The position numbers were made by a program, and so were the translations under genes. From NCBI GenBank assembly GCA_964364715.1, contig CAYING010000003.1, positions 3,764 to 67,763 on the forward strand: a stretch of DNA of 64,000 nucleotides. The letters are read 5' to 3'. Source of the DNA: an uncultured Planctomycetales bacterium. Its GTDB lineage: Bacteria > Omnitrophota > Gorgyraeia > Zapsychrales > GWA2-47-8. The notes under the pieces were generated by a model. It worked only from the letters and a program-made list of their open reading frames with translations, did no database searches and was not told the origin of the DNA. Below are positions 3,819-61,684 of the stretch, piece by piece (position 1 is the first letter of the stretch; each line of letters opens with the position of its first letter).

Positions 3819-3845
3819 ATCTGAAAAAATACCGTGCCAAGAAAC

Positions 3846-8559: not shown

Positions 8560-10515
8560 TTAAAACTTCATCCCTTTTTTGCCTAAAACGATCAGCCCGG
8601 CCGCGACAAAAATACTTTCTGCAATCACATACAGCGCCAAAGTATTCGCTATGCCCGACGTGAAACCATATGAATGCAAACCCACGCTCAGCAAATTCAC
8701 CCCGAACCACGCCCACATCACGACGATCAGCAAAAACACACTCCCGGCCGCCATGCCGAGCGGATTGATCAATTTACTGATCCGGGCATGCAGGAGAATA
8801 GCGCACCAGAGGACGATGAGCAAAGCACCGTTCTCTTTGGGGTCCCAACCCCAAAAACGCCCCCAGGATTGGTCCGCCCAGATACCGCCCAGCGCCGTTC
8901 CCAGCAAGGTCATGGTCAATCCGAACCCGATAATGCCGAACATATTGCTAAAAGTTATTTCCAAACGCTTTTTATCATTCGGTTTACTGAGGGCCTGCAG
9001 GATATAAATATGCCCCATGATGCCGGCCACACAGCACCCCGCATAACCGATGGTGATCGAGATCACATGCGTGCTCAGCCAAAAATTCGAGTTCAGGACC
9101 GCCACCAGCATCTGCATCGTATCCCCGTCGCTGTTAAATTTTCCAGCGACGAACAACGCAACCAGCCCGGAAACACCGGAGACCACCAGCCCCATCCAAT
9201 TTTTATTCACCATCTCAAGGATAAACCCTAACAAAACACTGATCAGGCCCACAAAGATGAACGTTTCATAAAGGTTACTCACCGGCGGACGGGACATGAT
9301 CAATATCCGCAAGATCAAAGCGCCCAAATGCGGAATGAATCCCGCGGCTACGGAAAATACCGCGGCGCGGTACAGCCATTTTTTATCGGACATAAGAGAA
9401 GACAAAAACAAGATAAAAACGGCCGCATAGAAAAGCTCTGCCCAGGCGAACAAATTCAGTTTATTATAGAGAAGCTCCAGCGGAAATCTTTTCACCGCGT
9501 TCTTTTCTTTGGAAGAAAGCCGTTTACCGACGGAATCCATAAAACTCCGCCCCGCCAGGTCAAATTCAAGCTGCGATCCTGACCAATACGCAAGCGTCAT
9601 ATCACGGATGCTTTTCACTTCCGAATGATATTCCGGATCAAAATACCCGATATTGATCGTGTCCATGGGGCTCATCCACTGCTCATCGTCGTGGCTCTTG
9701 GTGGGAATGATCCCCAAGGGGCAATTGGCATAATTCTGCGTCCAGAAGAACAGGCCGTTCACTAAACCGAGAAAGACTTTATCGGCATCGGTCCAGGATT
9801 CTTTAGGCTTTCGCTCTAACGGTTCCGTGACCTTCTGTAAAGGATCCGACTTCTCAAGAATATCAAAAAAGCTGAACTCGCTTTGGTCTTTCGGCAGTTC
9901 CAGCGCCTCAAGGACCTCGGGTGTCGTGATCGTAAAATCCGGATGATGGAAACCGTAACTGAACGCCCCGGACAATTGGACATAGAGCCGGAGGTTGCTG
10001 AAAACCCGCAGCAGCTCCCGGTCGACGACAGATTGGCTCTTTTCATCGATCGCATTGGCGCTCATCGCCAGCTCTTGAAGCTTTGCGTAACCCGGTTCCA
10101 GCTGCTGATAGGAATAGCGCCTCTTTTTATCCAGCTCGATCTGCAGGGCTTCGGCGATCTCCGGGTTATTGATCAAAAAAACCTTGTCCTTGAAGGTCGT
10201 CCGCGGGGCGAATAAAAACCGCGCGAACCACACGAGCGCGGATTCTTTCTCATAATGTTTTTTCCCGGAAAGCTGGATCAAAAAACTTTCGGCATATGTA
10301 TCCAGCGGCTTGATCCGGCCCTGGTTCACAATAGGGATCCGCTTAAAGGTTTCCAGCGAATTGGCCTTTTCGGGTTTAAGATTATTGAGCGGACAAAACT
10401 GCTGAGCGGAAATGGCCTGCGGGAACAAAATCCCCAGGAAGAACAGGACTGCTATGCATCCTGCGAAGCTCAATCGAATATTTTTATTTTCCTTCATCCA
10501 CATAAGGCGATTCAA
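8560..10515 (-). CDS. ccsA: Cytochrome c biogenesis protein CcsA (system II heme-handling subunit) with a ~330-aa N-terminal periplasmic extension
   Basis: Tryptophan-rich WWD motif WGRFWGWDPKENGALL. Multiple TM helices in the C-terminal half; signal peptide plus a soluble N-terminal domain. Overlaps ccsB by 32 nt. Confidence 0.8.
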   Translation of the reverse strand: MNRLMWMKENKNIRLSFAGCIAVLFFLGILFPQAISAQQFCPLNNLKPEKANSLETFKRIPIVNQGRIKPLDTYAESFLIQLSGKKHYEKESALVWFARFLFAPRTTFKDKVFLINNPEIAEALQIELDKKRRYSYQQLEPGYAKLQELAMSANAIDEKSQSVVDRELLRVFSNLRLYVQLSGAFSYGFHHPDFTITTPEVLEALELPKDQSEFSFFDILEKSDPLQKVTEPLERKPKESWTDADKVFLGLVNGLFFWTQNYANCPLGIIPTKSHDDEQWMSPMDTINIGYFDPEYHSEVKSIRDMTLAYWSGSQLEFDLAGRSFMDSVGKRLSSKEKNAVKRFPLELLYNKLNLFAWAELFYAAVFILFLSSLMSDKKWLYRAAVFSVAAGFIPHLGALILRILIMSRPPVSNLYETFIFVGLISVLLGFILEMVNKNWMGLVVSGVSGLVALFVAGKFNSDGDTMQMLVAVLNSNFWLSTHVISITIGYAGCCVAGIMGHIYILQALSKPNDKKRLEITFSNMFGIIGFGLTMTLLGTALGGIWADQSWGRFWGWDPKENGALLIVLWCAILLHARISKLINPLGMAAGSVFLLIVVMWAWFGVNLLSVGLHSYGFTSGIANTLALYVIAESIFVAAGLIVLGKKGMKF

Positions 10516-11653
10516 ACTTTCTCTTGGAAGTAAAGGCCATCATAATAAAATGGATCGTCAGCCCCGCGAATGTGACAAAGGTCGCAATATAGGGCAAAAT
10601 CCAGCCGCCATTCTTAACGACCGCCAGCGTCGAGGCCTCGTTCCCCATCTTATCGATCTGATAAGAAGATTGGTATAAAGTAAATTCTTTATCCCGCAAA
10701 GGATTATTCATTGAGATCAATTTCTCGCGCCACGCGTTATTTGTGTTGATGGCTACCTGGCTGCTGAAGCTGCGCGGGGTATCAGTCCCCGGATATTGTT
10801 CCTTAATGAAATCAATCATTTTCAGATGGAACGGCAATTGATGCCGCGCCTGCCGCAGCATCATGGCATAATTTTTTCCGCCGGCCTTAAACGAGAACGG
10901 AGTTTCCTCACTCCCGTAAAGCATTAGGTCAAAATTTTCTCCGTCTTTCGGCTGAATAGTGAAAATTCCGCCCGGGGTGTTTTTCTCCGGCTCTTTCTCG
11001 AGGTCCGCCGGCTGCAGCCGCTGGATCCCGGAAGCGCTCAATATCTTCTTTTCATCCGCCGGGCCTGAGTAGGCCAGGCAATTCCGGTAAAAATCTTTTA
11101 CGGTCAACTTAAAGCCCAGCTGGAAAACATCAACTTCCTGCCCCGTTTTTAGGCCGCCCGCATCGATCGCCGTGACCTCGCGGGTATACTGCAGAGGCTT
11201 TTCATCTTTCCCCGCTTCCCAAACCGCGACCTCCCAATTATGGTATGCCGTCGAGACATTGGAGCTTTGGCCTTCGTATAATGTGAGAAAACTTTCCCGC
11301 GAGCTATGGAGCACAATATAACCGGATATCAAGAAAAGCATAAGGCCGAAATGGATAATGATGATGCCGATATTCCGCCATTTGTAAACCAACCGGGTCA
11401 ATGCCACACATACCAAATTAATGAACAAGACCCACATCACCAGCTGAGCCCCGGGAAAAGGGATAAATCCCAGCACCAGAAAAAAGAACGATTCGAAGAA
11501 TCTCTCCTGGGCGATGTACAAACCCTGTTGAACCTGAGCGATCGTTCCCCAATACGTGAGGATGAACAACAAGATCAAACACACGACCGCCAATTTCACG
11601 GAGGAAAGTGATTTAATGATTTTATTCTTGCGGAGTTTTTGACGGAAATTCAT
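10484..11653 (-). CDS. ccsB: Cytochrome c biogenesis protein CcsB/ResB
   Basis: N-terminal TM helix, large periplasmic domain and C-terminal TM helices, as in the ResB family. Adjacent to and overlapping ccsA. Confidence 0.75.
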   Translation of the reverse strand: MNFRQKLRKNKIIKSLSSVKLAVVCLILLFILTYWGTIAQVQQGLYIAQERFFESFFFLVLGFIPFPGAQLVMWVLFINLVCVALTRLVYKWRNIGIIIIHFGLMLFLISGYIVLHSSRESFLTLYEGQSSNVSTAYHNWEVAVWEAGKDEKPLQYTREVTAIDAGGLKTGQEVDVFQLGFKLTVKDFYRNCLAYSGPADEKKILSASGIQRLQPADLEKEPEKNTPGGIFTIQPKDGENFDLMLYGSEETPFSFKAGGKNYAMMLRQARHQLPFHLKMIDFIKEQYPGTDTPRSFSSQVAINTNNAWREKLISMNNPLRDKEFTLYQSSYQIDKMGNEASTLAVVKNGGWILPYIATFVTFAGLTIHFIMMAFTSKRKFESPYVDEGK

Positions 11654-11657
11654 TGCA

Positions 11658-12434
11658 TTATTTCAAGTGAATGGATTTAACAAAACTCTTGAGCGTATCA
11701 CGGCTGCTCAAAACCGCCGGTTTCGGGCCGGTCATTTTAACAAAAATTTGAGAACCTTCTTTTTCAATGACCGCGGCGATCATGCTCGGGGCGTCCGGCG
11801 GAGAATCATTCTGCATCTGAGTAAGGTCGATCAGGGTGACGGGCATTCCCTTGTCCGTGGAAAATTTTTCCTGGCGCTGGATAAAGCTGTCCAATTCTTT
11901 GGCATCCGGGACCGGGATCTTGATCTGCTGGATCCAGCGCGCCACGTTTGCGCTCAGCCCGCCGGCTGATCCGCCTAATGAAACGATGGTTGTTTCGGTC
12001 TTGGGGTCGGTCGAGGTAAATGTCGCCAGCCGCAATCCGCCGCCTCTTTTTTCCGACCATCCCTTGGGCGTTTCCCATTCCAGAGGAGTTTGATCGGCGG
12101 AGGCGCTGATCTGCTGCTGCAGGGCAGGATCGTTCATTCCCTGCATCATGGGAGGTATGTCTTGCTGATTAGAACCCTTTAAGCCGGCGTGGATGTCATC
12201 GTCAGGCATGAGCCCGGCGCGAACGCCATCCTGGGGCATAAGCCCGGCATGGATATCGTCTTGCGGCATACCGGAGAACATTCCTCCGGTTGGCGGGGTC
12301 ATCTTCTTAGGAGCATCCCCGAAGACTTCTGTGTATTGACGGAGTTTGGCAGGCTGTTCACATCCCAGGAACAGAACTGATGTAAGGGAAATATATAAAA
12401 ATAAAAGGCCGAACCGGCCGGAAATCTGCAGCAT
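11658..12434 (-). CDS. Lipoprotein with a tandem peptide repeat (MPxDxIHAGL x3), function unknown
   Basis: Lipobox LFLGC. DNA tandem repeat of ~30 nt at about 12180-12270 encodes MPQDDIHAGLMPQDGVRAGLMPDDDIHAGL. Confidence 0.6.
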   Translation of the reverse strand: MLQISGRFGLLFLYISLTSVLFLGCEQPAKLRQYTEVFGDAPKKMTPPTGGMFSGMPQDDIHAGLMPQDGVRAGLMPDDDIHAGLKGSNQQDIPPMMQGMNDPALQQQISASADQTPLEWETPKGWSEKRGGGLRLATFTSTDPKTETTIVSLGGSAGGLSANVARWIQQIKIPVPDAKELDSFIQRQEKFSTDKGMPVTLIDLTQMQNDSPPDAPSMIAAVIEKEGSQIFVKMTGPKPAVLSSRDTLKSFVKSIHLK

Positions 12435-12517
12435 AAAAATTTTTCTCCCGAAAGTTGGTAGTATCCTAACAAAATGCCATTAAGAATTCAACAGGAAAAG
12501 ACCTTTCCGACAAAAAT

Positions 12518-14014
12518 CTAACTCCCGGAATGGCACTCTGAACAGTGCATTTCCTTCCACCCCTCATCTGTTTCATCCGGATGGCGAAACGGAAGACCGT
12601 CCGCGTTCTTCTCAGTGGCCCCGACGGGCCCCTGTTCAATAATGGAATGGCACTGATTGCAATCCTTGGACAAAACCTTCCCGTCCGATGTCTTATGCTT
12701 CTCATCATGGCACCGGAAGCATCCCGGGAAAATAAAATGCCCGATATTATCTGGGTACGCCTTCCACGATGCCTTCATCCGGGGAAAAATATTCATCTTA
12801 TAAATTTCCAAGATCGATGCCACCGCCTGGTCGACCAAGCTCCGGTTCTGAGAAAAAAATTCCGGATATTTTTTCTGATAAAATTTCTCGATTTTTTCTT
12901 TGATCGCGGATTCTGCCGCCTCTTCGGTCTCATACTCTGCGGATAAAACCTTCAACGCCTCCCGCTTGATATACGGGATGGAGTTGTCGATCGCGCCGCG
13001 AGCCAGCACCTCGTTGAGCGTTTTGTCCGGAGAGTTGTAAATGTGCGCAGGACGGTTATGACAGTCCATGCAATCCATCTGACGCAGTTCTCCCTCCGGC
13101 GGTTTCTCCGCAGAATATTTTGAGTCCTCATCAACGTAGATGTCCTCTTTGCCGTCGGCACGGACGACTTTGATCCAGGGAATCGTTTGCCGCTTTGCAT
13201 CTGTGGCGACATAATACACCTTGCTGTTGATATTCATATGCCAATGGATCCCCTCCTTCTTTCCATACGGAGGGTTCCCGCCGCCCACCAGCATCAGCAT
13301 CCTGCTCTTCCAGGCGGTATTTTTCTCATCGGACAAAAAATAAGTTTTATCTGCTTCAATTGCGCCGAAAAACTGCTGCGGCCAATGGCACTTTTCGCAG
13401 GTCTCTTGAGCCGGACGAAGATTTTTGACCGGGGTCTCTATCGGACGGCTATATTTCTTGAAAATGACAGAATAAACCTGATATGTCCCGGCAAGTTTCG
13501 ATCTGACGTACCAATCCACCCCATGCCCGATATGACAATGAACGCACGCCACCCGGGCATGCGGTGAATTCTGATAGGTCGTGAATTCCGGATGCATGAC
13601 TTGATGGCATGTCTTCCCGCAAAACGTCACCGATTCGGTAAATTCATAAGCCCGGTAACTCCCCACCGCCGTGAACAGCAAAAACGCCGTCACAACACAG
13701 ATTGTGACATACGCGATCCTCTGATGCATGGGATTATTGAAATCAATGTGAGGAAAACGCCGGGCATGACCGCGCTTGACCCTTAGCTTGCGCTCGAGCA
13801 TGGCGCCGATGGGGATCAGCAATAAAGAAATGATGAGGAAAATCGGAGCGATTAAATACGTAACCACCCCAAGGTACGGGTTCGCCTCTTTATTGCGGAA
13901 GTCTAGAATGAAAAATACGAGAATGACGGAAAAGCAGAAGCTGGAAAGGATGCCTCCGGCGACGCTGACCCAATTTTGAAAGAGACTCGGTTGTTTATTT
14001 TCGTCGGACTGCAT
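12518..14014 (-). CDS. Membrane-anchored heptaheme cytochrome c, NapC/NrfH-like quinol dehydrogenase type
   Basis: Seven CXXCH motifs (CGKTCH, CVHCH, CEKCH, CMDCH, CFRCH, CNQCH, CSECH). N-terminal TM helices lie immediately before the first heme motif. Confidence 0.8.
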   Translation of the reverse strand: MQSDENKQPSLFQNWVSVAGGILSSFCFSVILVFFILDFRNKEANPYLGVVTYLIAPIFLIISLLLIPIGAMLERKLRVKRGHARRFPHIDFNNPMHQRIAYVTICVVTAFLLFTAVGSYRAYEFTESVTFCGKTCHQVMHPEFTTYQNSPHARVACVHCHIGHGVDWYVRSKLAGTYQVYSVIFKKYSRPIETPVKNLRPAQETCEKCHWPQQFFGAIEADKTYFLSDEKNTAWKSRMLMLVGGGNPPYGKKEGIHWHMNINSKVYYVATDAKRQTIPWIKVVRADGKEDIYVDEDSKYSAEKPPEGELRQMDCMDCHNRPAHIYNSPDKTLNEVLARGAIDNSIPYIKREALKVLSAEYETEEAAESAIKEKIEKFYQKKYPEFFSQNRSLVDQAVASILEIYKMNIFPRMKASWKAYPDNIGHFIFPGCFRCHDEKHKTSDGKVLSKDCNQCHSIIEQGPVGATEKNADGLPFRHPDETDEGWKEMHCSECHSGS

Positions 14015-14092
14015 AAAAAGAGGCCTGCTAAATTCTCGCCGGCCGCGTCAAACTGGCGGGATCGTGAAAAGGGCAGAAATTCCGCTAAAAGT

Positions 14093-15529
14093 TTATTTAT
14101 ACCGTTCCTGAAACTGCTTTTGAGCTTCAAGCCGTTTCGCCGCCTCGGCCGGATCCATTTTGTTGATATACCATTTATGGTCCGCAGATTCCAGGACTTC
14201 CGATAATTTATTTTTTAACATCTGGGCTGCTTCTGATTCTTTCTTGTCCTTGGAGTCGATGTTCTTTTCAACAATCGCCTCAAGCGCCGGGATAAATTCG
14301 GCATAGAACCTTTTGGCGACCTCGTAGGTCCCGTGCCAATGCGTATAATCCGGCCCCATCATAGACGCGCCGTGCCTTGCCCTACGCCCTTCATGATGCC
14401 ACAGCTCATACCAGATAAAATCGATCTCATTACTGAATTCTACCGGCTTCAATAATGGCTGCGCCAATTTCATCAGCTCCTGACCCGGCCTGGCAAATTT
14501 CTCAGTATACAATTCCAACAGGCTGTCATATTGCAGATAAAAGCTGTCCACATAATTGGCGCTGTGGCATTCTGTGCAGACTTTCTTCATGTTCTTCCGG
14601 CGGGTTTCCCAGGACACGTCTTTCCCGGGGAGTCCCATCTTGCCATCGGAAACTTCCGGACGGATAGAAATAGCCGGCCGATTGTTCCAACTGATACGCA
14701 TCCCGACGTCGTGGGTGACATCCATATCCGGGGTCGCGCTCATATGGCAAGTCGCGCACGTCGGAGCAGCATTATAATCTTCGCCGAGAACCCATTTCTC
14801 ATTATCTAAATTCATTTTATGTTTATTCGCATGAAAGGCAATGCCGTGCTTCGATTCTTCGTAGATCTCGATCTGCGGATGGTCCGGCCCCATATGGCAT
14901 TTTCCGCAATTCTCCGGATTTCTGGCCTGTTCAACGGAAAATTTGTGCCGGGAATGGCATGCCGAGCAGGAACCTTCGGACCCATCGGGATTGATCCGGC
15001 CGATCCCGGTATTGGGCCACGTGGCCGGGTCCAGGGAACCGTCCTTCAAAACCTTAACTTCGGAGCCGTGGCATTGCCAGCAGCCGTTAACGGCAGCGGC
15101 GGAGACACCTTCCGGAAAACCAGGCGTTTTCATCATAAGATTGCCCTCGACGATATCCGCGAGGCGATTGTCCAAGGAGCCAAGAATCCTGGCGCCTTTG
15201 GAATGGTGAGACGAATTGAATTCGTTGACCTCTTTAGCATGGCAGCGGGAGCAATCCTGAGGCGAAACAATTATGGAGATGATCTCGCCGTAATGGTCAA
15301 TGGCATCCTTATCGGATTTATCGGCCTGATGGCATTCATAACATCCGACATTGCCCCTAAAATGCTTGCTGGCACCCCACTGCTGAACGATAACGGGCGT
15401 CTCTTCCCGGTGGCATTCAAGACAATCCTTGGACTTGACCGACAACTCGTCAAGACCGTAGGCACTGCGCCATACCAGAACAAAAGTTAATAATAAAAAA
15501 CATGCCCCCGAAAAGAAATATTTTTTCAT
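14093..15529 (-). CDS. Octaheme cytochrome c, hydroxylamine oxidoreductase (HAO)-like
   Basis: Eight CXXCH motifs (CLECH, CYECH, CSRCH, CWQCH, CSACH, CGKCH, CATCH, CTECH). Size ~480 aa. The signal peptide starts at the internal Met MKKYFFSGACFLLL; the track's 50-aa N-terminal extension is rejected. Confidence 0.8.
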   Translation of the reverse strand: MKKYFFSGACFLLLTFVLVWRSAYGLDELSVKSKDCLECHREETPVIVQQWGASKHFRGNVGCYECHQADKSDKDAIDHYGEIISIIVSPQDCSRCHAKEVNEFNSSHHSKGARILGSLDNRLADIVEGNLMMKTPGFPEGVSAAAVNGCWQCHGSEVKVLKDGSLDPATWPNTGIGRINPDGSEGSCSACHSRHKFSVEQARNPENCGKCHMGPDHPQIEIYEESKHGIAFHANKHKMNLDNEKWVLGEDYNAAPTCATCHMSATPDMDVTHDVGMRISWNNRPAISIRPEVSDGKMGLPGKDVSWETRRKNMKKVCTECHSANYVDSFYLQYDSLLELYTEKFARPGQELMKLAQPLLKPVEFSNEIDFIWYELWHHEGRRARHGASMMGPDYTHWHGTYEVAKRFYAEFIPALEAIVEKNIDSKDKKESEAAQMLKNKLSEVLESADHKWYINKMDPAEAAKRLEAQKQFQERYK

Positions 15530-15572
15530 AATCGTTCCGTCCATTGTTTTCCCGTCTAAATTTCTACGATAG

Positions 15573-16130
15573 TTACTCTTTCGGCACCGGGTGCTTGATC
15601 TGTTCGAGTCTTTCCTTGAAATCAAAAGATTTATATGTCGGGGCTTCGGGGTTGTGGCATTTCTTGCAAGTATTTTCATCAGGAATTACCAGGCCCTGCG
15701 CGACCGCTTCTTCCTCATCTTCCATAACGCTTTTCTTCATATAATCCTTGCCGGCGCCGTGACAGGATTCACAGGAAACCCCTTCCTCGACGGTAATCGC
15801 CTCGGTGGCCTTTGCTTCCGTGAAATTATAAGCCGTTGAATGGCATTTCAGGCATTTGCCGCTTGTGGACGGATCATCAATACCTAACTTAGCGGCCTGC
15901 TCTTTGGCCTCCGGGGTCTTTAAGGTCTCAAACGCTTTGGCATGTTTTGACTCCTGCCAGATTTTAAACTGTTCCCCCTGCTCCGGTTTTTTATGGCACA
16001 TGGAACATTTTGTAACTCCCACAAATTCGTGTTCCGCCTGGACGGCGGACATCTCAGCGCCCCACATAAGCATAACTGCACATCCCCCAAAAACTAATAC
16101 GGCATTAATGACTGTTAAGCCTCGTTTCAT
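15573..16130 (-). CDS. Tetraheme cytochrome c
   Basis: Four CXXCH motifs (CSMCH, CLKCH, CESCH, CKKCH). N-terminal signal/anchor. Confidence 0.8.
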   Translation of the reverse strand: MKRGLTVINAVLVFGGCAVMLMWGAEMSAVQAEHEFVGVTKCSMCHKKPEQGEQFKIWQESKHAKAFETLKTPEAKEQAAKLGIDDPSTSGKCLKCHSTAYNFTEAKATEAITVEEGVSCESCHGAGKDYMKKSVMEDEEEAVAQGLVIPDENTCKKCHNPEAPTYKSFDFKERLEQIKHPVPKE

Positions 16131-16161
16131 TTTTTATCCTCCTGTATTCCGGTGAATTAAT

Positions 16162-17313
16162 TTATTTTTCCTGAATCCCTTGATCCGGCTGCGCTGAGTG
16201 CGGAATGCCAAAAATATCAAATTTATATTCTTTGCCGAAAATTTTTTGTTTACTCTCCGAAATAAACCCTAAAACACCAAATACCAATAAAGACAACAAA
16301 ACCAAGACCCCTATGGTCACCGAGATCGGGCGTTTGAACGGATGCCGCTGAGGGCTTCTATCCAAAAAAGGCCACAATAAAAGCAAGACAGGCGCCAGAC
16401 CGACGACAAAAATCCCCAAAAGTTTAGAAAAATATTTCAAAACATGATACATCGGCAAAAAATACCACTCCGGCTTTATCCCCTCGGGAGTGCTTAACGG
16501 ATCGGCCTTTTCGCCCAATTCAAAAGGAGCCAGGATCGATAACGTGATCAAGATACCGAGCAGAATAAAAAAGACGACCCCTTCCTTGAGCATATGGTGC
16601 GGGAAGAACGGGATCCCGTCTTTTACCTTAGTCTCTTTCTCATCCCCCACCGGGTCCATCGTCGCGATCCCCTGAAACCTCACCAAAAATAGATGAATGG
16701 CAATCAAAAAGAAAACCGTCCAGGGAAGGATGATGACGTGGATCACAAAGAAACGGGAAAGAGTTTCTCCGCCGACCGACGTGCCCCCCCGCATCAATGT
16801 CTTCATCCATTCTCCGACAAACGGAATAGCGCCGGCGATCTCTGTCCCGACCGTCGTTGCCCAATACGCCAACTGGTTCCACGGCAGAAGATATCCCGTA
16901 AACCCGAAGACTAACGTCAAAACGAACAGAAAAACACCAATAAGCCAGGTTATTTCCCGCGGTCTTTTGAACGATCCGGTAAAAAATGTGCGCAGCATAT
17001 GCAGAAAGACAACGATCACCATCAAATTCGCCCCCCAGGCATGGACCTGACGGTATAACCACCCCATATACGGTGTGGTCATAATAAATTTAATGCTCTC
17101 AAAGGCTTCATCGACGGTGGGACGGTAATAGATCAAGAGCAATATCCCGGTCAGGACCTGGCTGACAAAAAGGAATAAGGACATGCTTCCGAGGGTATGA
17201 AACCAACCGGTACTTCTGGGAAGCGGTTTTTTGATCTGGTACTGCAGCGACCCTTCGATCTTCTCCAGATCGTAGCGCTTCGACAACCATTCTCTTAAAT
17301 TAAATTTCAGCAT
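16162..17313 (-). CDS. Cytochrome b (fused cytochrome b6 / subunit IV type) of a Rieske/cytochrome b complex
   Basis: Conserved cytochrome b segments: GWFHTLGSMSLFLFVSQVLTGILL, bis-His helix pairs, and PEWYFLPMY of the C-terminal portion. Confidence 0.9.
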   Translation of the reverse strand: MLKFNLREWLSKRYDLEKIEGSLQYQIKKPLPRSTGWFHTLGSMSLFLFVSQVLTGILLLIYYRPTVDEAFESIKFIMTTPYMGWLYRQVHAWGANLMVIVVFLHMLRTFFTGSFKRPREITWLIGVFLFVLTLVFGFTGYLLPWNQLAYWATTVGTEIAGAIPFVGEWMKTLMRGGTSVGGETLSRFFVIHVIILPWTVFFLIAIHLFLVRFQGIATMDPVGDEKETKVKDGIPFFPHHMLKEGVVFFILLGILITLSILAPFELGEKADPLSTPEGIKPEWYFLPMYHVLKYFSKLLGIFVVGLAPVLLLLWPFLDRSPQRHPFKRPISVTIGVLVLLSLLVFGVLGFISESKQKIFGKEYKFDIFGIPHSAQPDQGIQEK

Positions 17314-17345
17314 AAAAATTTTTGTTCCCTTCGCGGAAATTTCGG

Positions 17346-17816
17346 TTACACCTTCACCATGACTCTGCCGTTGACAACGCTCACTTCATGCGGCGGGAGC
17401 GGGCGCGGCGGAGGCCCTGCCACAACTTTTCCATCAAGATCAAAAAGGCCCGCATGGCAAGGGCAGATGATCTCCCGTTTCTTACCGTCCCACTCGACCA
17501 AACACCCTAAATGGGTGCAGATGGCAGAATAGGCCTTAAACCCTTGCGGCGTTCGGATAACCAGAATAGCGCTGCCTGCCACAATTACTTTTTTCCCTCC
17601 CCAGGCCGGAATATCATCCTCGGCGCCGACATCACTTAAACCCCCGGCCGGACCCCGACGGGTCACCGGCCAAAGATAAGCTAAGGCCGGGGCCACCATC
17701 CCGGCCAAGGTCGTGAACAGCCCCAGCCGGATGATCCATCCCAGAAAATCCCTGCGGCTCAAATTTTCCTTTTCCAAAACTGCGGTTTTTACGTGCCCCG
17801 GATTTTCATTTACCAT
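17346..17816 (-). CDS. Rieske [2Fe-2S] iron-sulfur protein
   Basis: Rieske boxes CTHLGC and CPCHAG. Canonical twin-arginine signal SRRDFLG. An internal start (MVNENPGH) abuts the upstream cytochrome gene. Confidence 0.85.
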   Translation of the reverse strand: MVNENPGHVKTAVLEKENLSRRDFLGWIIRLGLFTTLAGMVAPALAYLWPVTRRGPAGGLSDVGAEDDIPAWGGKKVIVAGSAILVIRTPQGFKAYSAICTHLGCLVEWDGKKREIICPCHAGLFDLDGKVVAGPPPRPLPPHEVSVVNGRVMVKV

Positions 17817-17817
17817 A

Positions 17818-19068: not shown

Positions 19069-19113
19069 AAAAGCAAATTCACAAGGCCTTCCTTAAAATA
19101 AAGACCTTTGGCT

Positions 19114-19896
19114 TCAAGCATAACTATGCAATGTTGAAAAAAACAAATTTACCCCAATGTAGGTAAAAAGAATAACTACAAACCCCAACATTGTTAAAAG
19201 AGCGGCATTAAGACCGCGTAAATTCCGTGTATGGCGCAAATGAAGACAGCCGGCATAGATCAACCACGTTGTTAATGCCCATATTTCTTTGGCATCCCAA
19301 TTCCAGAATCTTCCCCAGCTGATACTGGCCCATATAGAACCGCAGGCCAACCCCACCGTTAAGAAAGGGAACCCCCTGTCAAGCACTTGGAAAATCATCC
19401 CCTCAAGACTATCCAATAAAGCCTTATTATTACCGCGATAGCGCAAAATATTGATGATATAAACAAGGCTCAAACCAAAGGCTATCGCGAAACTGGCATA
19501 AGCAATAAGATAAGATCCCACATGAAAATAGAGCCAGCCGCTTCTCAATGACGGCATCAGCGGACGTATGGCATCATTAATAAAAAGGGAGAATACCAGC
19601 AAACACAACGCCACTACAATCCCCAGCAATTTGATCCAGCGGAACCCCAACCGGAACGCGGCATAAAAGCTCAACATCACAATCAGCCAGGCAAAAACGA
19701 TCAATGTTTCATACGTATCGGTTAATGGAAAACGCTGCGCTTCAATAGCTCGTTTGACAATCAAATAGCCGTGCAATCCCCACCCTGTCATCAAAAAAGA
19801 GCCTTCAATAACAGTAAAAAAATTTTCCCTAACCTTCCCGGCTATGAGGAAAAAAACCAGGGACAAAAAATAGAGGACAATGACTCCTATCATCAT
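19114..19896 (-). CDS. ccsA: Cytochrome c biogenesis protein CcsA (second, canonical-length copy)
   Basis: WWD motif WGRFWNWDAKEIWAL. Eight TM segments. Confidence 0.85.
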   Translation of the reverse strand: MMIGVIVLYFLSLVFFLIAGKVRENFFTVIEGSFLMTGWGLHGYLIVKRAIEAQRFPLTDTYETLIVFAWLIVMLSFYAAFRLGFRWIKLLGIVVALCLLVFSLFINDAIRPLMPSLRSGWLYFHVGSYLIAYASFAIAFGLSLVYIINILRYRGNNKALLDSLEGMIFQVLDRGFPFLTVGLACGSIWASISWGRFWNWDAKEIWALTTWLIYAGCLHLRHTRNLRGLNAALLTMLGFVVILFTYIGVNLFFSTLHSYA

Positions 19897-21236
19897 AACC
19901 CTTCCATCCTCCGCTCTATGTCCTTAACAATTTTTTGTATTTCCTTCTCAAAGGAAAATACATTTTTGCACTTCATGGCTCGAGCGCTAACATACGAGGT
20001 CATGTTTGAAATATCTTCTTTAACAGTGATAACCAAACCGCGATAAAACCGGTAACTGCTTAAAAAAGATCCGGCAACAAGCAAAATCAGCCCAAAATAT
20101 GTTATATACTCGCCGGGATTCTTCGCGTATTTTATGCCGGAGGTATACCGGGACTTAATGCCGTCCAGCATGAACCTCAATTTCTCCGGAGTCTCCGTGG
20201 ATCCTGTATGAGGCATCACTCCGCGGAAAACCCACTGCTCCCGAGCCGGCAAAGAAGAATTGGCCGGTGAATAAATCAAAAGATAACCGGCCGGATTCCT
20301 TAATATATGACTTCGGGTTGAAGGCTGGTTATTCTCATCGATAAAAAAATCCGGGATAAAATTTTTAACCTTTAAAGCGATATTCAACTCGGGAACAGCG
20401 ACCAGATTATCAACACCCATCGTCAAAATCTTAACCGGCTGACTTTCATTTTCACGGAAGATGGCAATGCGTAACTCGTCAATATCAAAACTAAATCTCT
20501 GCTGATAAAGCCTAACACCTTCGATTCTTAAGGGGCCATTGACTTTTAATGTGCGCCATTCTATGGGTTTTCCCGGACGGTTGATTCTTAAGCGGCTGGC
20601 ATAATCATCAGTTTTTTCTTTAGCGGCGCTTGGGATAACCGCGAATTTTTCCAGCGTTAATAAAGCGTCCGTCCCCTCCAACGGGATCGTTTCTCCTTCG
20701 CGAATGGAAAAATCATAAAACCTTCCGCCCCCGGCCGTAATTATGCCGGCTAACAACAATACCGCAACAGCCAGATGAACGATATGTGAACCGAAGATAT
20801 TAAATTTTGCTTTTTCATAAAAAAATCTCTCTTCGCCTTGGCCTGGCTCACAATAAGCCGTCTTACGATAACGCCATTGACTTAAGACCTGGTGAATATG
20901 CTCTGTGACAAGCTGTCTATTTTTTTTCTTAAAAGAAAAATTAAAAACTTCTTTCTCCGCTAACGAAGAGAAGAAATTGCGGAAGGATTCCTTATCTTGT
21001 ACAGAAGAAAATATTCTCTTATGGTATTGATAAAATTTGATGAGTCCCGGCCATCGTCTGACCGAACAATACCCCATCATCAAGACGATATAACACAAAT
21101 AGCCCAAAAACAAACGGTTTTGGAAAACCGCTCTGAAGGAAGGAGAAACGCCCAGCAGACTGATCAGTCCGAGAGAAAGGAGCAGGAAGATCGTTAAGGG
21201 GACAGATAGAAAGATCCTATCAAAAAATTTAAGCAT
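19893..21236 (-). CDS. ccsB: Cytochrome c biogenesis protein CcsB/ResB (second copy)
   Basis: ResB-like topology. 4-nt overlap with the downstream ccsA. Confidence 0.75.
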   Translation of the reverse strand: MLKFFDRIFLSVPLTIFLLLSLGLISLLGVSPSFRAVFQNRLFLGYLCYIVLMMGYCSVRRWPGLIKFYQYHKRIFSSVQDKESFRNFFSSLAEKEVFNFSFKKKNRQLVTEHIHQVLSQWRYRKTAYCEPGQGEERFFYEKAKFNIFGSHIVHLAVAVLLLAGIITAGGGRFYDFSIREGETIPLEGTDALLTLEKFAVIPSAAKEKTDDYASRLRINRPGKPIEWRTLKVNGPLRIEGVRLYQQRFSFDIDELRIAIFRENESQPVKILTMGVDNLVAVPELNIALKVKNFIPDFFIDENNQPSTRSHILRNPAGYLLIYSPANSSLPAREQWVFRGVMPHTGSTETPEKLRFMLDGIKSRYTSGIKYAKNPGEYITYFGLILLVAGSFLSSYRFYRGLVITVKEDISNMTSYVSARAMKCKNVFSFEKEIQKIVKDIERRMEGL

Positions 21237-21272
21237 CGAGTTACTATTAAACCATACTTTGTCCCCGATTAA

Positions 21273-23312: not shown

Positions 23313-23327
23313 GTTGCCCCCCTTCGT

Positions 23328-25222: not shown

Positions 25223-25249
25223 TCTTCCCTCTCCTAGGTTCAATTAGGT

Positions 25250-25771
25250 TCAATGGTGAACGCTTAACTTCGAAATCAGGACATCCTGCTCTTCCGCCTT
25301 CAACCGGCGCATCATCTTGTAAATATTCTGCCCCTCGACTTGCAGATGATTGCGGACCAAACACACCAGATAGATCCCGTGGTCCCTCAATTTGGCGGCC
25401 AATTTTTGCTCTCCGGTGTCGGTCTTGGCCTTCTCAGCTTTTAAAAATAGCACTTCCAGCGCCTTAAATTCTTCTCTGATCTCAGCATGTTCCCCCTTAA
25501 AATACTCGAGAATCGGCTCATACTTAGGGATATGCTTTTGAAAAAACGGGAAAAGTTTATCGTCGTCAAACTTCATATGCGGGAAGAGATCCTTCTTTAT
25601 CGACCGTACGCTGCGGAATACATTCCGGATATTGCGCCGCACAAAGATCTTCCCTTCGTATTGAAGGTTGTTGAGCGCTGCGTAAAGTTTATTGACCTCT
25701 TTAAGCATTTCGGAATGTTCCGACTCTAAGCCCTGGATGGCTTTTTCTATCCTTGGATTCCGGCTGACCAT
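25250..25771 (-). CDS. Hemerythrin-like (HHE cation-binding domain) protein, paralog 1
   Basis: Four His/carboxylate helix motifs (ESEHSEM, HMKFDDDKLFP, GEHAEIREEF, RNHLQVEG). Paralogous to 59929..60567. Confidence 0.5.
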   Translation of the reverse strand: MVSRNPRIEKAIQGLESEHSEMLKEVNKLYAALNNLQYEGKIFVRRNIRNVFRSVRSIKKDLFPHMKFDDDKLFPFFQKHIPKYEPILEYFKGEHAEIREEFKALEVLFLKAEKAKTDTGEQKLAAKLRDHGIYLVCLVRNHLQVEGQNIYKMMRRLKAEEQDVLISKLSVHH

Positions 25772-25814
25772 AGAATTCTTTTAATTTTATTCTACTCAAA
25801 CCGGAGCTTTTGTC

Positions 25815-25830
25815 TGTGACTGCGGTCACA
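25815..25830. promoter_or_regulatory. Perfect CRP-type palindrome TGTGAC-N4-GTCACA between the Crp/Fnr gene and the hemerythrin-like gene
   Basis: tgtgactgcggtcaca, centred about 52 nt upstream of the ATG at 25771. It matches the TGTGA-N6-TCACA architecture. Confidence 0.5.
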
Positions 25831-25840
25831 AAGGCCTTAA

Positions 25841-26506
25841 CTATTTCAAAAGCTGTTTTTCCAGCGCCTCTTTATCGCATATAAGGATGCGCGGGGGCTT
25901 CAGGTCTACCAATGCCTTATCTTTAAGTTTTTTAAGATGCCGGGTGACTGTTTCACGAACCAAACCCAACCTTTGAGCGATCTCTTCGTGGGTAAATGAA
26001 ATACCGGGAACTGACTCGCTCATATTGAGCAGGAATTTGATCAAGCGTTTTTCCGGGGCATCCAAGGACACCTCTTCCACCAAAGAACTCATCCGGCATA
26101 AACGCTGGGCAAAAATGCGGGTTAAGGCTTGAGCCAGTGTGGAATTGCTTTTGACCATTTGCACATATTGGCTGCGGCTCACGATCCCCAGCTCGCAATC
26201 CGACATCGCCTGGGCCGATGAAGAACAGCTCCACTGCGTCGCGCCGGGGTTGCAGGCGCAGGTATCGCCGGACCCGAGGATCTCCAGGATCTGTTCCCGG
26301 CCATTGAGAGAAGTCCGGAATATTTTGACCCGCCCGGATAAGACAAAAAATATCTCCCGGCAGGATTCTCCGGCGGTCGAAATGACCTTATTTTTTTCAA
26401 AAATTTTTCGGATAATAGTGGGGGCGATCGCCTGCTTTTCCTTGAGCGACAAGTCGCGGAACAGTGATATGTTTTGGATCATATCTGGAGTAATGCGTGA
26501 CGACAT
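25841..26506 (-). CDS. Crp/Fnr-family transcriptional regulator with an internal Cys cluster, paralog 1
   Basis: cNMP-binding beta-roll plus C-terminal HTH (EIAQRLGLVRETVTRHLKKL). Conserved motif GDTCACNPG..WSCSSSAQA..DC. Start chosen by alignment with the paralog at 60718..61419. Confidence 0.85.
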   Translation of the reverse strand: MSSRITPDMIQNISLFRDLSLKEKQAIAPTIIRKIFEKNKVISTAGESCREIFFVLSGRVKIFRTSLNGREQILEILGSGDTCACNPGATQWSCSSSAQAMSDCELGIVSRSQYVQMVKSNSTLAQALTRIFAQRLCRMSSLVEEVSLDAPEKRLIKFLLNMSESVPGISFTHEEIAQRLGLVRETVTRHLKKLKDKALVDLKPPRILICDKEALEKQLLK

Positions 26507-26640
26507 TATTATGCAGTCCTCATTTAATATATATCTTACTGTATTCCTTTTTAATGGCAAATGAATTGAGAACTAATTTAAATCCTCTTCTGCTGCACTG
26601 GAACTTGAATACGCCAAACCACAGGAATATTATTAATCTA

Positions 26641-53343: not shown

Positions 53344-53441
53344 AGCCGTCAGCCTCTACTATCAGTCAGCTCGCAGGGGCATCGTCCTTAAGACCATGGC
53401 CGAAGCTTCAGGTCTTAAGGATTAGGGAATTTGATGTTTAT

Positions 53442-53642: not shown

Positions 53643-53724
53643 AAACCGGCTCCTTTATTAGTCTATCAACTTTAACTGCTTTTCGGGCATTTTTCCCAAA
53701 TCGATCATTTATCAAAATCAAACA

Positions 53725-54387: not shown

Positions 54388-54405
54388 ACGATATCCCCTT
54401 TTTTT

Positions 54406-55704: not shown

Positions 55705-55753
55705 GTGTTCTCTCCCTCCTATTTTGAAAGTGAATCTATTCGATTCGAACAAT

Positions 55754-59011: not shown

Positions 59012-59087
59012 ATTATTTTAGCCTCCTTGGCTTGCGATAACGCGACTCTTTTTTTATATTCAATATATCGGCCTTGCGCAAGGCTTT

Positions 59088-61672: not shown

Positions 61673-61684
61673 ACGGCACCTCCT

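What the first reader, a model, noticed from the sequence alone, without database searches (positions are those of the whole stretch)
14093..15529. HAO-like octaheme: cross-link Tyr question decides oxidative vs reductive chemistry
The protein has exactly eight CXXCH motifs, with the spacing typical of the hydroxylamine oxidoreductase family. Its C-terminal segment HGASMMGPDYTHWHG contains a tyrosine in a conserved-looking context. In true hydroxylamine/hydrazine-oxidising HAOs, a C-terminal Tyr cross-links to the catalytic heme P460. Reductive HAO-like enzymes (epsilon-Hao, anammox bc-associated paralogs) lack it. Whether this Tyr aligns with the cross-linking residue determines whether the complex oxidises NH2OH or N2H4, or reduces nitrite/NO.
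Basis: partly seen in the sequence, partly recalled or inferred. Interest (0 to 1): 0.7.

Follow-up and report, generated by a model that had tools for sequence, protein, structure and literature searches.

The report
HAO-like octaheme reductase without cross-link
The gene encodes an eight-heme enzyme of the hydroxylamine-oxidoreductase family.

Summary
Window 14093-15529 (minus strand) encodes a secreted 478-aa protein with exactly eight CXXCH motifs, an HAO-family Pfam hit and the motif HGASMMGPDYTHWHG.

- Three mutually consistent profile-profile alignments and a 66-sequence MAFFT alignment place Tyr395 opposite NeHAO Trp465, an aromatic position.
- The cross-linking Tyr467 falls on His397.
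- Two published analyses agree: reductive HAOs carry His or Trp at that site.
- Tyr395 is replaced by Ile, Phe or Trp in 14 of 82 species-level orthologs, although the surrounding motif hardly changes. Tyr467 is invariant in 119 of 119 oxidative HAOs of similar divergence.

The nearest solved structure is IhOCC, a nitrite/hydroxylamine reductase without a cross-link.

Orthologs sit behind quinol-oxidising modules, and sometimes next to nar or nap genes:
- an NrfCD-like module in 59 of 82 loci;
- Rieske/cytochrome b here and in two relatives.

Here the gene lies between a cytochrome c554-like tetraheme and a NrfH-like membrane cytochrome.

Best reading: a reductive terminal N-oxide reductase with no P460 cofactor. 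It is a new member of a large known clade.

Residual doubt: no residue-level structural superposition was possible, and one secondary-structure anchor is ambiguous.

The parts
14093..15529 (-). HAO-like octaheme cytochrome c gene. 478 aa, signal peptide, eight CXXCH; heme 4 motif is C150WQCH154.
   Evidence: PDB best hit is 4qo5 IhOCC (E 7e-54; 1.5e-64 with a profile), then NeHAO at 3e-23.
14330..14374 (-). End of helix B and the B-C loop, HGASMMGPDYTHWHG (residues 386-400). Tyr395 is codon 14345-14347. His397 is codon 14339-14341 and is the residue aligned with the NeHAO cross-link Tyr467.
14879..14884 (-). Asp216-His217, aligned with the distal-pocket Asp267-His268 pair of NeHAO.
   Evidence: The role of the pair in NeHAO is from established knowledge of the HAO structures.
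15573..16130 (-). Secreted tetraheme cytochrome (185 aa, 4 CXXCH), cytochrome c554-like, 43 bp upstream of the octaheme gene.
   Evidence: Pfam PF13435, 66.7 bits. Best PDB hit is N. europaea cytochrome c554, E 2e-9. Heme count.
16162..17313 (-). Cytochrome b (383 aa, about 7 predicted TM segments, N- and C-terminal b domains fused).
   Evidence: PF00033 188 bits, PF00032 69.7 bits
17346..17852 (-). Rieske [2Fe-2S] protein (168 aa; N-terminal SRRDFL Tat-like motif followed by a TM segment).
   Evidence: PF00355 48.6 bits
17818..19068 (-). Nine-CXXCH multiheme cytochrome (416 aa) with a C-terminal hydrophobic segment. Candidate replacement for the c1/f subunit.
12518..14014 (-). Membrane-anchored NapC/NirT/NrfH-like multiheme cytochrome (498 aa, 3 predicted TM segments, 6 CXXCH plus one CX3/4CH-type variant motif at residue 132), 78 bp downstream of the octaheme gene.
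   Evidence: PF03264 34.2 bits against cut-off 24.1. TIGR03153 NrfH at 1e-12, below its cut-off..
11658..12434 (-). 258-aa putative lipoprotein of unknown function in the same gene string. It has 31-47% identical counterparts near the octaheme gene in L002 and L018.
8560..11653 (-). ResB-like plus CcsA-like genes (System II cytochrome c maturation), second pair.
19114..21236 (-). ResB plus CcsA genes (System II cytochrome c maturation), first pair.
25250..26560 (-). Crp/Fnr-family regulator and hemerythrin-domain protein at the head of the gene string. Possible anaerobic or N-oxide-responsive control (inferred).

Best explanation
The gene encodes a periplasmic, probably trimeric, octaheme cytochrome c of the HAO superfamily. 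It belongs to the large reductive IhOCC/epsilon-Hao-like branch and has no tyrosine-heme (P460) cross-link. Tyr395 of the PDYTHW loop occupies the aromatic position two residues before the cross-link site. The site itself is His397.

Proposed electron path (inferred): quinol is oxidised by the adjacent Rieske/cytochrome b pair, and possibly also by the NrfH-like membrane cytochrome. Electrons pass through the 9-heme and c554-like tetraheme cytochromes to the octaheme. At the five-coordinate heme 4, with the Asp216/His217 distal pair, the enzyme reduces nitrite and/or NO or hydroxylamine, to ammonium or NO.

In effect this is a reverse-HURM/Nrf-like terminal reductase wired to a bc-type complex.

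Shown here: family membership, the residue alignment, the variability of Tyr395 and the conserved gene neighbourhoods.

Inferred: the direction of catalysis, the substrate and physical complex formation.
For: 1. Alignment.
- hhalign of C-terminal-domain profiles gives P393=P462, Y395=W465, T396=T466, H397=Y467 and G400=G470 (query family against oxidative HAOs).
- Query GPDYTHWHG aligns ungapped to kustc0458-type QPDVSWWWG. That register scores 14.7; the next best scores -3.4.
- The kustc0458-type profile against NeHAO (probability 99.6%) puts the first Trp on Tyr467.
- All three alignments agree, and so does MAFFT L-INS-i of 66 sequences.
- Predicted helix B coincides exactly under this alignment: query 368-390 equals NeHAO 437-459.

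2. Position 465 in oxidative HAOs is aromatic (W 60, F 37, Y 22 of 119). This matches Y/F/W/I at position 395.

3. Conservation control.
- Tyr467 is present in 119 of 119 oxidative HAOs that are 62-95% identical to NeHAO.
- Residue 395 is Y 91, I 21, F 1 among 113 close homologs.
- It is Y 68, I 10, W 3, F 1 in 82 species loci.
- Eight of the ten Ile loci keep the same NrfCD operon.

4. Literature.
- Reductive HAOs outside the anammox major clade have His at the key site (PMC12758564).
- Trp occupies the Tyr467 position in a kuste2479-type HAO (bioRxiv 10.64898/2026.07.28.741245).
- Enzymes without the cross-link are reductases (PMC8042395).
- IhOCC has no P460 cofactor and is a nitrite reductase (PMC9250108).

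5. Nearest structure: IhOCC is the top hit by sequence and by Foldseek.

6. Genomic context.
- 59 of 82 ortholog loci have a small cytochrome, NrfC-like and NrfD-like genes adjacent.
- narGHJI plus two MFS transporter genes (NarK-like, inferred) lie upstream in L001.
- A nap-like cluster is adjacent in L084.
- The order cyt b, c554-like, HAO-like, NrfH-like is kept in the window, in L086 (94% identical) and in L018 (81% identical).
- A Crp/Fnr regulator and a hemerythrin gene lie upstream.
Against: - No residue-level structural superposition was possible. The heme-less AF2 monomer is poor: pLDDT 69, loop about 54, TM-score 0.3 to PDB structures.
- Counting back from the predicted start of helix C, Tyr395 is at -4 (helix from H399). 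Tyr467 is also at -4 (helix from W471). That anchor favours equivalence.
- In the ungapped register scan the Y395=Y467 register is second best, only about 3 score units behind, both directly and via the kustc0458 type.
- Tyr is still the majority residue, at about 82%.
- No nitrate reductase, nir, nor or hcp gene was seen in the window. The only Mo-enzyme is TtrA-like.
- No member of this exact clade has been characterised biochemically. IhOCC is only about 27% identical.
Confidence: 0.75

Rival explanations
1. Oxidative P460 enzyme. Tyr395 is the structural equivalent of NeHAO Tyr467 and cross-links to heme 4 of the neighbouring subunit. The complex would then oxidise hydroxylamine or hydrazine and feed electrons into the quinone pool through c554 and the NrfH/cM552-like cytochrome, as a forward HURM.
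For: - A Tyr lies in the helix B-C loop in a conserved context.
- It sits at -4 from the predicted start of helix C, like Tyr467.
- The Y395=Y467 register is the second-best ungapped register.
- The neighbours are a c554-like and a NapC/NrfH-like cytochrome, the same trio as the AOB HURM.
- The Asp-His distal pair is conserved.
Against: - All gapped alignments put Tyr467 on His397.
- The alternative register pairs family-invariant residues wrongly (G470 with W398, W471 with H399).
- Tyr395 is Ile, Phe or Trp in 14 of 82 orthologs that keep the same operon. A true cross-link Tyr is invariant in 119 of 119.
- Published alignments find His or Trp, not Tyr, at this site in such proteins.
- No amo, hzs or other source of NH2OH or N2H4 is evident in the window.
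Confidence: 0.05
2. Mainly an electron-transfer hub rather than an N-oxide enzyme. The octaheme would relay electrons between the Rieske/cytochrome b complex and the MtrA/DmsE-like cytochrome plus putative outer-membrane protein encoded just upstream. The cluster would then serve extracellular metal reduction or oxidation.
For: - A DmsE/MtrA-family multiheme gene (23328-24149) and a 679-aa secreted protein with no detectable homologs (21273-23312) are in the same gene string.
- The cluster encodes 35 heme-attachment motifs in total (34 CXXCH plus one CX3/4CH-type variant in the NrfH-like protein) and two dedicated maturation systems.
Against: - The heme 4 motif and the Asp-His distal pair of catalytic HAOs are retained. 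Asp-His is invariant in close homologs and present in 48/45 of 66 broader family sequences.
- In 59 of 82 loci the ortholog is the last soluble component behind an NrfCD-type quinol dehydrogenase, with no Mtr-like genes.
- Two orthologs sit next to nar or nap genes.
Confidence: 0.1
3. A reductase for a sulfur oxyanion (sulfite, tetrathionate or thiosulfate) rather than a nitrogen oxide, by analogy with MccA and OTR and with the sulfite activity of NrfA and ONR.
For: - The window carries a TtrA/TtrB-like molybdoenzyme pair and a TauE/SafE sulfite-exporter family gene, and no recognisable nitrate reductase.
- Multiheme nitrite reductases are known to turn over sulfite (established knowledge; PMC8840924, for ONR).
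Against: - Those genes lie 32-45 kb away and belong to separate units.
- Orthologs are repeatedly linked to nar or nap genes, and to GDH/GltS in one case.
- The closest characterised relatives (IhOCC, epsilon-Hao, HAOr) are all N-oxide reductases.
- No CX15CH or copper-site features of MccA were seen.
Confidence: 0.08

Closest known systems
IhOCC (Igni_0955), octaheme cytochrome c of Ignicoccus hospitalis, PDB 4QO5
   Same: - Best sequence hit (E 7e-54; 1.5e-64 with a profile) and best fold hit.
- The heme 4-to-5 stretch (query 155-187), which is 28 residues longer than in NeHAO, aligns continuously with IhOCC.
- The C-terminal helix-loop-helix is alignable (GTAMNGQDWTTF against GASMMGPDYTHW).
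- No P460 cross-link, and described as a nitrite reductase.
   Different: - Only about 27% identical.
- IhOCC has Trp, Thr and Phe where this protein has Tyr395, His397 and Trp398.
- IhOCC has Asp-Val instead of the Asp-His distal pair (DPDVP against GPDHP).
- It lacks the WHHEGRRARHG signature.
- It is archaeal and membrane-associated.
Epsilon-Hao / reverse-HURM module (Nautilia profundicola HaoA plus NapC/NrfH-type cM552; Campylobacter epsilon-Hao)
   Same: - An octaheme HAO homolog lacking the cross-link Tyr, paired with a NapC/NrfH-family quinol dehydrogenase and linked to nitrate reduction.
- Reduces nitrite and hydroxylamine in vitro (PMC3701875; PMC8042395).
- This window also has the c554-like third component of the HURM.
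   Different: - Orthology to epsilon-Hao was not tested, because no epsilon-Hao sequence was in hand.
- The NrfH-like protein here is much larger (498 aa, 3 TM segments, 6-7 hemes).
- A Rieske/cytochrome b pair is added.
Kuenenia stuttgartiensis HAOr (kustc0458/0457, PDB 6H5L) and the Rieske/cyt b complex R/b-3 (kuste4569-4574) with HAO-like Kuste4574
   Same: - HAO-family octahemes without the Tyr cross-link. HAOr reduces nitrite to NO.
- Kuste4574 is an HAO-like subunit encoded with Rieske and cytochrome b genes and is proposed, though untested, to reduce nitrite.
- The CHMGPDHP distal motif is identical.
   Different: - Distant in sequence: 74-84 bits against 187-222 bits for IhOCC.
- The cross-link position holds Trp (SWWWG) in the kustc0458 type and His here.
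- No FAD- or NAD(P)-binding subunit was seen in this cluster.
- The window is not from an anammox context; no hzs or hdh genes were seen.
Nitrosomonas europaea HAO (PDB 4FAS/1FGJ) and anammox HOX/HDH (4N4J, 6HIF): oxidative P460 enzymes
   Same: - Eight hemes in the same order.
- Spacings of hemes 2-4 and 5-7 match.
- The Asp-His distal pair is shared.
- C-terminal helices, with helix B aligning end to end.
- Partnered with a c554-type cytochrome and a NapC/NrfH-type cytochrome.
   Different: - His397 stands in place of the invariant cross-link Tyr467/Tyr451.
- Arg284 stands in place of NeHAO Tyr334.
- About 20% identity.
- The C-terminus was not alignable by phmmer or a plain HMM.
- The enzyme is wired to quinol-oxidising rather than quinone-reducing partners in most genomes.
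NrfABCD-type cytochrome c nitrite reductase system
   Same: In 59 of 82 ortholog loci the octaheme follows a small multiheme cytochrome, an NrfC-like Fe-S protein and an NrfD-like membrane protein. This is the NrfB-C-D logic, with the octaheme in the place of NrfA.
   Different: - The catalytic subunit is an HAO-type octaheme with a His-ligated heme 4 (CXXCH), not a pentaheme with a CXXCK heme.
- In this window the NrfCD module is replaced by Rieske/cytochrome b.
Caldithrix abyssi nap-Rieske/cyt b-epsilon-Hao cluster (Cabys_2564-2556)
   Same: A Rieske protein and cytochrome b without a monoheme c1, encoded next to an HAO-like octaheme that lacks the Tyr and is proposed to act as a nitrite reductase (PMC5317091).
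   Different: - No nap genes adjoin the cluster here.
- Extra 9-heme, c554-like, NrfH-like and MtrA-like cytochromes are present.
- The sequence relationship to Cabys_2556 was not tested.

Membership tests
HAO superfamily of octaheme cytochromes c (Pfam PF13447 type) | Eight c-type heme attachment motifs in the HAO order and spacing | tested here: met
   Eight CXXCH at residues 36, 63, 93, 150, 188, 208, 258 and 318. Spacings match NeHAO for hemes 2-4 and 5-7.
HAO superfamily of octaheme cytochromes c (Pfam PF13447 type) | Significant profile and sequence similarity to solved HAO-family structures | tested here: met
   PF13447 scores 92.2 bits against cut-off 21.9. All 8 PDB sequence hits are HAO-family. 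The Foldseek top 9 are HAO-family only.
HAO superfamily of octaheme cytochromes c (Pfam PF13447 type) | Distal Asp-His pair next to catalytic heme 4 (NeHAO Asp267/His268) | tested here: met
   D216/H217 align to D267/H268. The role of the pair is from established knowledge.
HAO superfamily of octaheme cytochromes c (Pfam PF13447 type) | Homotrimer built on long C-terminal helices | tested here: inconclusive
   AF2 predicts long helices 324-359, 368-390 and 399-423 with high confidence. The oligomeric state cannot be tested with these tools.
Oxidative P460-type HAO (NeHAO, HOX, HDH) | Tyr at the cross-link position (NeHAO Tyr467, KsHOX Tyr451) | tested here: not met
   Tyr467 aligns to His397, and Tyr395 aligns to Trp465. 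Caveat: the alignment is sequence-based, and one secondary-structure anchor is ambiguous.
Oxidative P460-type HAO (NeHAO, HOX, HDH) | Invariance of that Tyr among orthologs | tested here: not met
   Tyr467 is present in 119 of 119 oxidative HAOs. Residue 395 is Y 68, I 10, W 3, F 1 in 82 species loci and Y 91, I 21, F 1 among 113 close homologs.
Oxidative P460-type HAO (NeHAO, HOX, HDH) | 460-475 nm Soret band of the reduced enzyme and a covalently linked trimer | not testable with these tools
   Needs the expressed protein.
Reductive HAO-like enzymes (IhOCC, epsilon-Hao, HAOr) | No Tyr at the cross-link site; His or Trp there instead | tested here: met
   His397 is at the site. Literature: His in reductive outgroups and Trp in a kuste2479-type HAO.
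Reductive HAO-like enzymes (IhOCC, epsilon-Hao, HAOr) | Genetic linkage to a quinol-oxidising electron-donor module and/or to nitrate reductase | tested here: met
   Rieske/cyt b plus an NrfH-like cytochrome here. An NrfCD-like module in 59 of 82 loci. nar in L001 and a nap-like cluster in L084.
Reductive HAO-like enzymes (IhOCC, epsilon-Hao, HAOr) | Nitrite, NO or NH2OH reductase activity with negligible NH2OH or N2H4 oxidation | not testable with these tools
   Needs enzyme assays.
Anammox R/b-3-type complex (kuste4569-4574) | Rieske, cytochrome b, multiheme cytochrome(s) and an HAO-like octaheme encoded together | tested here: met
   Genes at 19068-12518 lie on one strand with gaps of -35 to 78 bp.
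Anammox R/b-3-type complex (kuste4569-4574) | HAO-like subunit of the HAOr/Kuste4574 clade | tested here: not met
   Kuste4574 is described as a close homolog of HAOr. The query scores 74-84 bits to kustc0458 and 187-222 bits to IhOCC. Kuste4574 itself was not aligned.
Anammox R/b-3-type complex (kuste4569-4574) | NAD(P)/FAD-binding oxidoreductase subunits in the operon (recalled from the anammox literature) | tested here: not met
   No flavoprotein or NAD(P)-oxidoreductase domain was found among cluster ORFs 8560-24149. The defining feature is taken from memory, not from a paper read here.
HURM (hydroxylamine:ubiquinone redox module: HAO + cytochrome c554 + cM552) | Cytochrome c554-type tetraheme partner | tested here: met
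   The 185-aa protein has 4 CXXCH. PF13435 scores 66.7 bits. Best PDB hit is NeHAO partner c554, E 2e-9. NCBIfam Cyt554 scores 54 bits, far below the equivalog cut-off of 400.
HURM (hydroxylamine:ubiquinone redox module: HAO + cytochrome c554 + cM552) | NapC/NirT/NrfH-family membrane quinone/quinol-interacting cytochrome | tested here: met
   PF03264 scores 34.2 bits against cut-off 24.1. Three predicted TM segments. TIGR03153 is below its cut-off.

The most novel reading that the evidence does not exclude
The window may encode a non-anammox counterpart of the enigmatic anammox R/b-3 complex. In this reading, multiheme cytochromes (9-heme plus c554-like) replace the c1/f subunit of a Rieske/cytochrome b complex and dock an HAO-type octaheme directly. 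Quinol oxidation would then be coupled electrogenically to nitrite or NO reduction in one supercomplex. His397, at the old cross-link position, would project into the neighbouring subunit's active site as a catalytic or proton-relay residue specific to this very large reductive clade.
Probability: 0.3. Interest if true: 0.55.

Novelty: new member of a known kind. Interest (0 to 1): 0.27.

Why it matters

A tyrosine two residues away, in a conserved loop, is an easy source of mis-annotation. This family is very large:
- more than 8000 database hits;
- members in Planctomycetota, Verrucomicrobiota, Omnitrophota, Hydrogenedentota and others;
- routinely labelled 'hydroxylamine oxidoreductase/dehydrogenase'.

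Fixing the register (W/F/Y-T-Y-T-x-G in oxidisers, Y/I/F/W-T-H-W-H-G here) keeps these genes out of ammonia-oxidation budgets and into nitrite-reduction ones.

The rarer Rieske/cytochrome b linkage gives a comparative handle on how bc-type complexes feed HAO-like reductases. That question is still open for the anammox R/b-3 complex.

Tried and rejected
- **PDB searches.** phmmer and a family HMM aligned only residues up to about 332-339 with NeHAO and kustc0458. The C-terminal loop could not be read off directly.
- **Reference sequence.** I used the NeHAO sequence from memory only after checking it: 546 of 546 identical to 4fas_A. The same call gave the KsHOX alignment, where chain Tyr415 (Tyr451 in precursor numbering, from memory) aligns to Tyr467.
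- **kustc0458 fragment search.** It returned only 8 partial proteins. Four of them (P0271, P0272, P0274, P0278) carried the C-terminus and served as the bridge.
- **AF2 models without hemes.** Both have pLDDT about 69, and TM-score is only about 0.3 to crystal structures. No coordinates or residue maps were available, so I used only the secondary-structure boundaries. These agree on helix B and disagree by 2 residues on the start of helix C. I report this as evidence against.
- **Ungapped register scan.** It is decisive for the query against the kustc0458 type. It gives only about a 3-unit margin against NeHAO.
- **Exact look-up of the window protein.** Not on record. The source organism is unknown. 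The nearest relatives are an unbinned contig (94%) and Omnitrophota MAGs (81%).
- **'An ortholog of Kuste4574'.** Rejected on score grounds.
- **'An ONR/NrfA-type enzyme'.** Rejected. There is no CXXCK motif, and Thioalkalivibrio ONR appears only at Foldseek E > 1.
- **The 679-aa protein at 21273-23312.** No hit in Pfam, NCBIfam or PDB.
Full report
**1. What is there**

Window 14093-15529 is a gene on the minus strand. It encodes a 478-aa protein with an N-terminal signal-peptide-like segment (MKKYFFSGACFLLLTFVLVWRSAYG) and exactly eight CXXCH motifs, at residues 36, 63, 93, 150, 188, 208, 258 and 318. No variant heme motifs are present.

Family evidence:
- Pfam PF13447 is hit well above threshold.
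- All PDB sequence hits are HAO-family octahemes: IhOCC 4QO5 at E 7e-54, NeHAO at 3e-23, kustc0458 at 1e-19, HOX at 3e-14 and HDH at 1e-12.

Motif spacings are 27, 30, 57, 38, 20, 50, 60 here and 66, 27, 57, 10, 20, 51, 50 in NeHAO. The architecture is the same. The query has 28 extra residues between hemes 4 and 5, in the stretch (155-187) where the IhOCC alignment is continuous. The segment HGASMMGPDYTHWHG is residues 386-400.

**2. Is Tyr395 the cross-link tyrosine?**

*Reference sequences.* Plain HMM searches did not align the C-terminus with NeHAO. I verified the NeHAO mature sequence (546 of 546 identical to 4fas_A). The known cross-link Tyr467 lies in HVNPGGWTY467TEGWGP, and KsHOX Tyr (chain residue 415; Tyr451 in precursor numbering, from memory) aligns to it. 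I then collected:
- 120 oxidative HAOs, 62-95% identical to NeHAO;
- 150 cluster representatives related to the query, 33-86% identical over the matched stretch;
- four C-termini of the kustc0458 type, reading ...AHAQPDVSWWWGQAPM....

*Profile-profile alignments.* hhalign of the C-terminal domains gave three results:
- Query family against oxidative HAOs: P393=P462, Y395=W465, T396=T466, H397=Y467, G400=G470.
- Query family against the kustc0458 type: ungapped, GPDYTHWHG against QPDVSWWWG.
- kustc0458 type against NeHAO (probability 99.6%): the first Trp falls on Tyr467. The alignment then runs ungapped through helix C to the shared IQxE motif.

The three are transitive and agree with a MAFFT L-INS-i alignment of 66 sequences.

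*Secondary structure.* AF2 secondary structure for both proteins makes helix B coincide exactly under this alignment: query 368-390 and NeHAO 437-459.

*The aromatic position.* Position 465 of oxidative HAOs is itself aromatic (W 60, F 37, Y 22 of 119). This explains why Tyr395 looks conserved.

*Published analyses.* Two independent papers reach the same residue type.
- Reductive HAOs outside the anammox major clade carry His at the key site (PMC12758564).
- A kuste2479-type HAO carries Trp at the Tyr467 position (bioRxiv 10.64898/2026.07.28.741245).

**3. Conservation test**

Tyr467 is invariant in 119 of 119 oxidative HAOs. At a similar level of divergence, residue 395 varies:
- Y 91, I 21, F 1 among 113 close homologs;
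- Y 68, I 10, W 3, F 1 in 82 species-representative genomes.

Meanwhile GPD-x-THWHG is otherwise nearly invariant. Eight of the ten Ile loci keep the same operon. The three Trp cases are in anammox-lineage MAGs. A residue that forms a catalytic covalent cofactor would not behave this way.

**4. Caveats**

- No residue-level 3D superposition was possible. The heme-less AF2 models are poor (TM-score about 0.3).
- Counted from the predicted start of helix C, both Tyr395 and Tyr467 are at -4.
- The Y395=Y467 register is second best in an ungapped scan, about 3 units behind.
- That register pairs invariant G470 with invariant W398 and needs compensating indels, so I consider it unlikely. I put it at about 15% for equivalence and about 5% for an actual cross-link.

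**5. Surroundings**

One co-directional gene string runs from about 26.5 kb down to about 8.5 kb, with gaps of -35 to 83 bp. In order:
1. Crp/Fnr regulator
2. hemerythrin-domain protein
3. HemA
4. DmsE/MtrA-like multiheme cytochrome
5. unknown 679-aa secreted protein
6. ResB and CcsA
7. 9-heme cytochrome
8. Rieske protein
9. cytochrome b
10. tetraheme cytochrome, whose best PDB hit is N. europaea cytochrome c554
11. the octaheme
12. a 498-aa NapC/NrfH-like membrane cytochrome
13. a putative lipoprotein
14. a second ResB/CcsA pair

The trio of c554-like, HAO-like and NrfH-like genes has the same composition as the HURM of ammonia oxidisers. It also matches the proposed reverse-HURM of Nautilia (PMC3701875).

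**6. Relatives elsewhere**

The family is very large: more than 8000 hits, many at 67-94% identity. Members occur in Planctomycetota, Verrucomicrobiota, Omnitrophota, Hydrogenedentota, Sumerlaeota, Myxococcota and Bdellovibrionota-like genomes.

Neighbourhoods:
- In 59 of 82 loci the gene follows a small multiheme cytochrome, an NrfC-like Fe-S protein and an NrfD-like membrane protein.
- narGHJI plus two MFS transporter genes (NarK-like, inferred) lie upstream in an Omnitrophota MAG (L001).
- A nap-like cluster is adjacent in L084.
- GDH and glutamate synthase genes are adjacent in L085.
- The arrangement cyt b, c554-like, HAO-like, NrfH-like is a minority form. It occurs in the window, in L086 (94% identical) and in L018 (Omnitrophica WOR_2, 81% identical).

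A Rieske/cyt b plus epsilon-Hao cluster has already been described in Caldithrix abyssi (PMC5317091). Kuste4574 of the anammox R/b-3 complex is a distant architectural parallel whose activity is unknown (PMC12485887).

**7. Mechanism**

Shown:
- HAO fold family.
- A conserved heme 4 motif.
- The Asp216/His217 pair, aligned to NeHAO Asp267/His268.
- No conserved cross-link Tyr.
- Consistent linkage to quinol-oxidising modules.

Inferred:
- Electrons flow from quinol through Rieske/cyt b (and/or the NrfH-like protein) and the 9-heme and c554-like cytochromes to the octaheme.
- The octaheme reduces nitrite, NO or hydroxylamine.
- The product (NH4+ or NO) cannot be called from sequence.
- Arg284 replaces NeHAO Tyr334. 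It is invariant in close homologs but variable in the wider family, so I give it little weight.

**8. Verdict**

This is an ordinary member of a very large, already recognised class of reductive HAO-like octahemes. Its hook-up to a bc-type complex is less common but has been described before.

Noticed in passing
window 21273-24149 (-): A DmsE/MtrA-family multiheme cytochrome (273 aa, 7 CXXCH; TIGR03508 E 2e-49, below cut-off) is followed by a 679-aa secreted protein with no Pfam, NCBIfam or PDB hit. The pair looks like a porin-cytochrome module and sits directly upstream of the Rieske/cyt b genes.
   Followed up: partly
window 19114-21236 (-) and 8560-11653 (-): Two separate ResB/CcsA (System II cytochrome c maturation) pairs lie inside one cytochrome gene string. 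The second CcsA-like protein is unusually long (651 aa).
   Followed up: no
window 24185-25243 (-); L001 12033-13124: A glutamyl-tRNA reductase (HemA) gene adjoins the cluster here. Another follows the HAO-like gene in the Omnitrophota locus L001. This suggests a recurring link between heme synthesis and these heme-rich operons.
   Followed up: no
window 14375-14407 (-), residues 377-387: The signature W-HHEGRRARHG at the end of helix B is nearly invariant in this family: 8 of its 11 positions are invariant and the other 3 are at least 90% conserved in 60 close homologs. It is absent from NeHAO, KsHOX, the kustc0458 type and IhOCC. Its role is unknown. By its position in the alignment just before the loop that aligns with the NeHAO Tyr467 loop, it may lie near the neighbouring subunit's active site (inference only; no structural mapping was possible).
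   Followed up: no
P0150 (representative with 45% identity to the query over the matched stretches): This relative reads PNHSYWEG in the loop. It has a Tyr in the column aligned with NeHAO Tyr467. It could be an independent His-to-Tyr switch of the kind PMC12758564 reports in Desulfobacterota.
   Followed up: no
L065, L076, L080 (Brocadiaceae and Scalindua MAGs); P0121 cluster: Anammox-lineage genomes carry an ortholog of this family (62-65% identical) that reads GPDWTHWHG, with Trp at position 395. L076 and L080 have an NrfD-like gene just upstream. This is presumably one of the anammox HAO paralogs that lie outside the major clade.
   Followed up: partly
window 51619-63907 (-): A second respiratory unit is present. 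It comprises a TtrA-like molybdoenzyme (1085 aa), a TtrB/DsrO-like Fe-S protein, a Porin_5 protein, a TorD-like chaperone, an Fnr-like regulator, MoaA and TatC. A TauE/SafE exporter gene lies at 47275-48045.
   Followed up: partly
P0036 (alignment A1, columns 306-358): A 53-residue internal duplication surrounds HDIGLRISWNNRP in one homolog. It is probably an assembly or gene-calling artefact.
   Followed up: no
L018 2686-5505: The Omnitrophica WOR_2 relative has cyt b and c554-like genes upstream of the octaheme. Downstream it has three ORFs (2686-5505) of the sizes of a small cytochrome, an NrfC-like and an NrfD-like protein; only the NrfC-like one was matched by tblastn (34% identity). If so, two alternative quinol modules sit in one locus.
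   Followed up: no
window 14819-15490 (+): A 223-aa ORF on the opposite strand lies entirely within the octaheme gene. It is most likely a shadow ORF.
   Followed up: no
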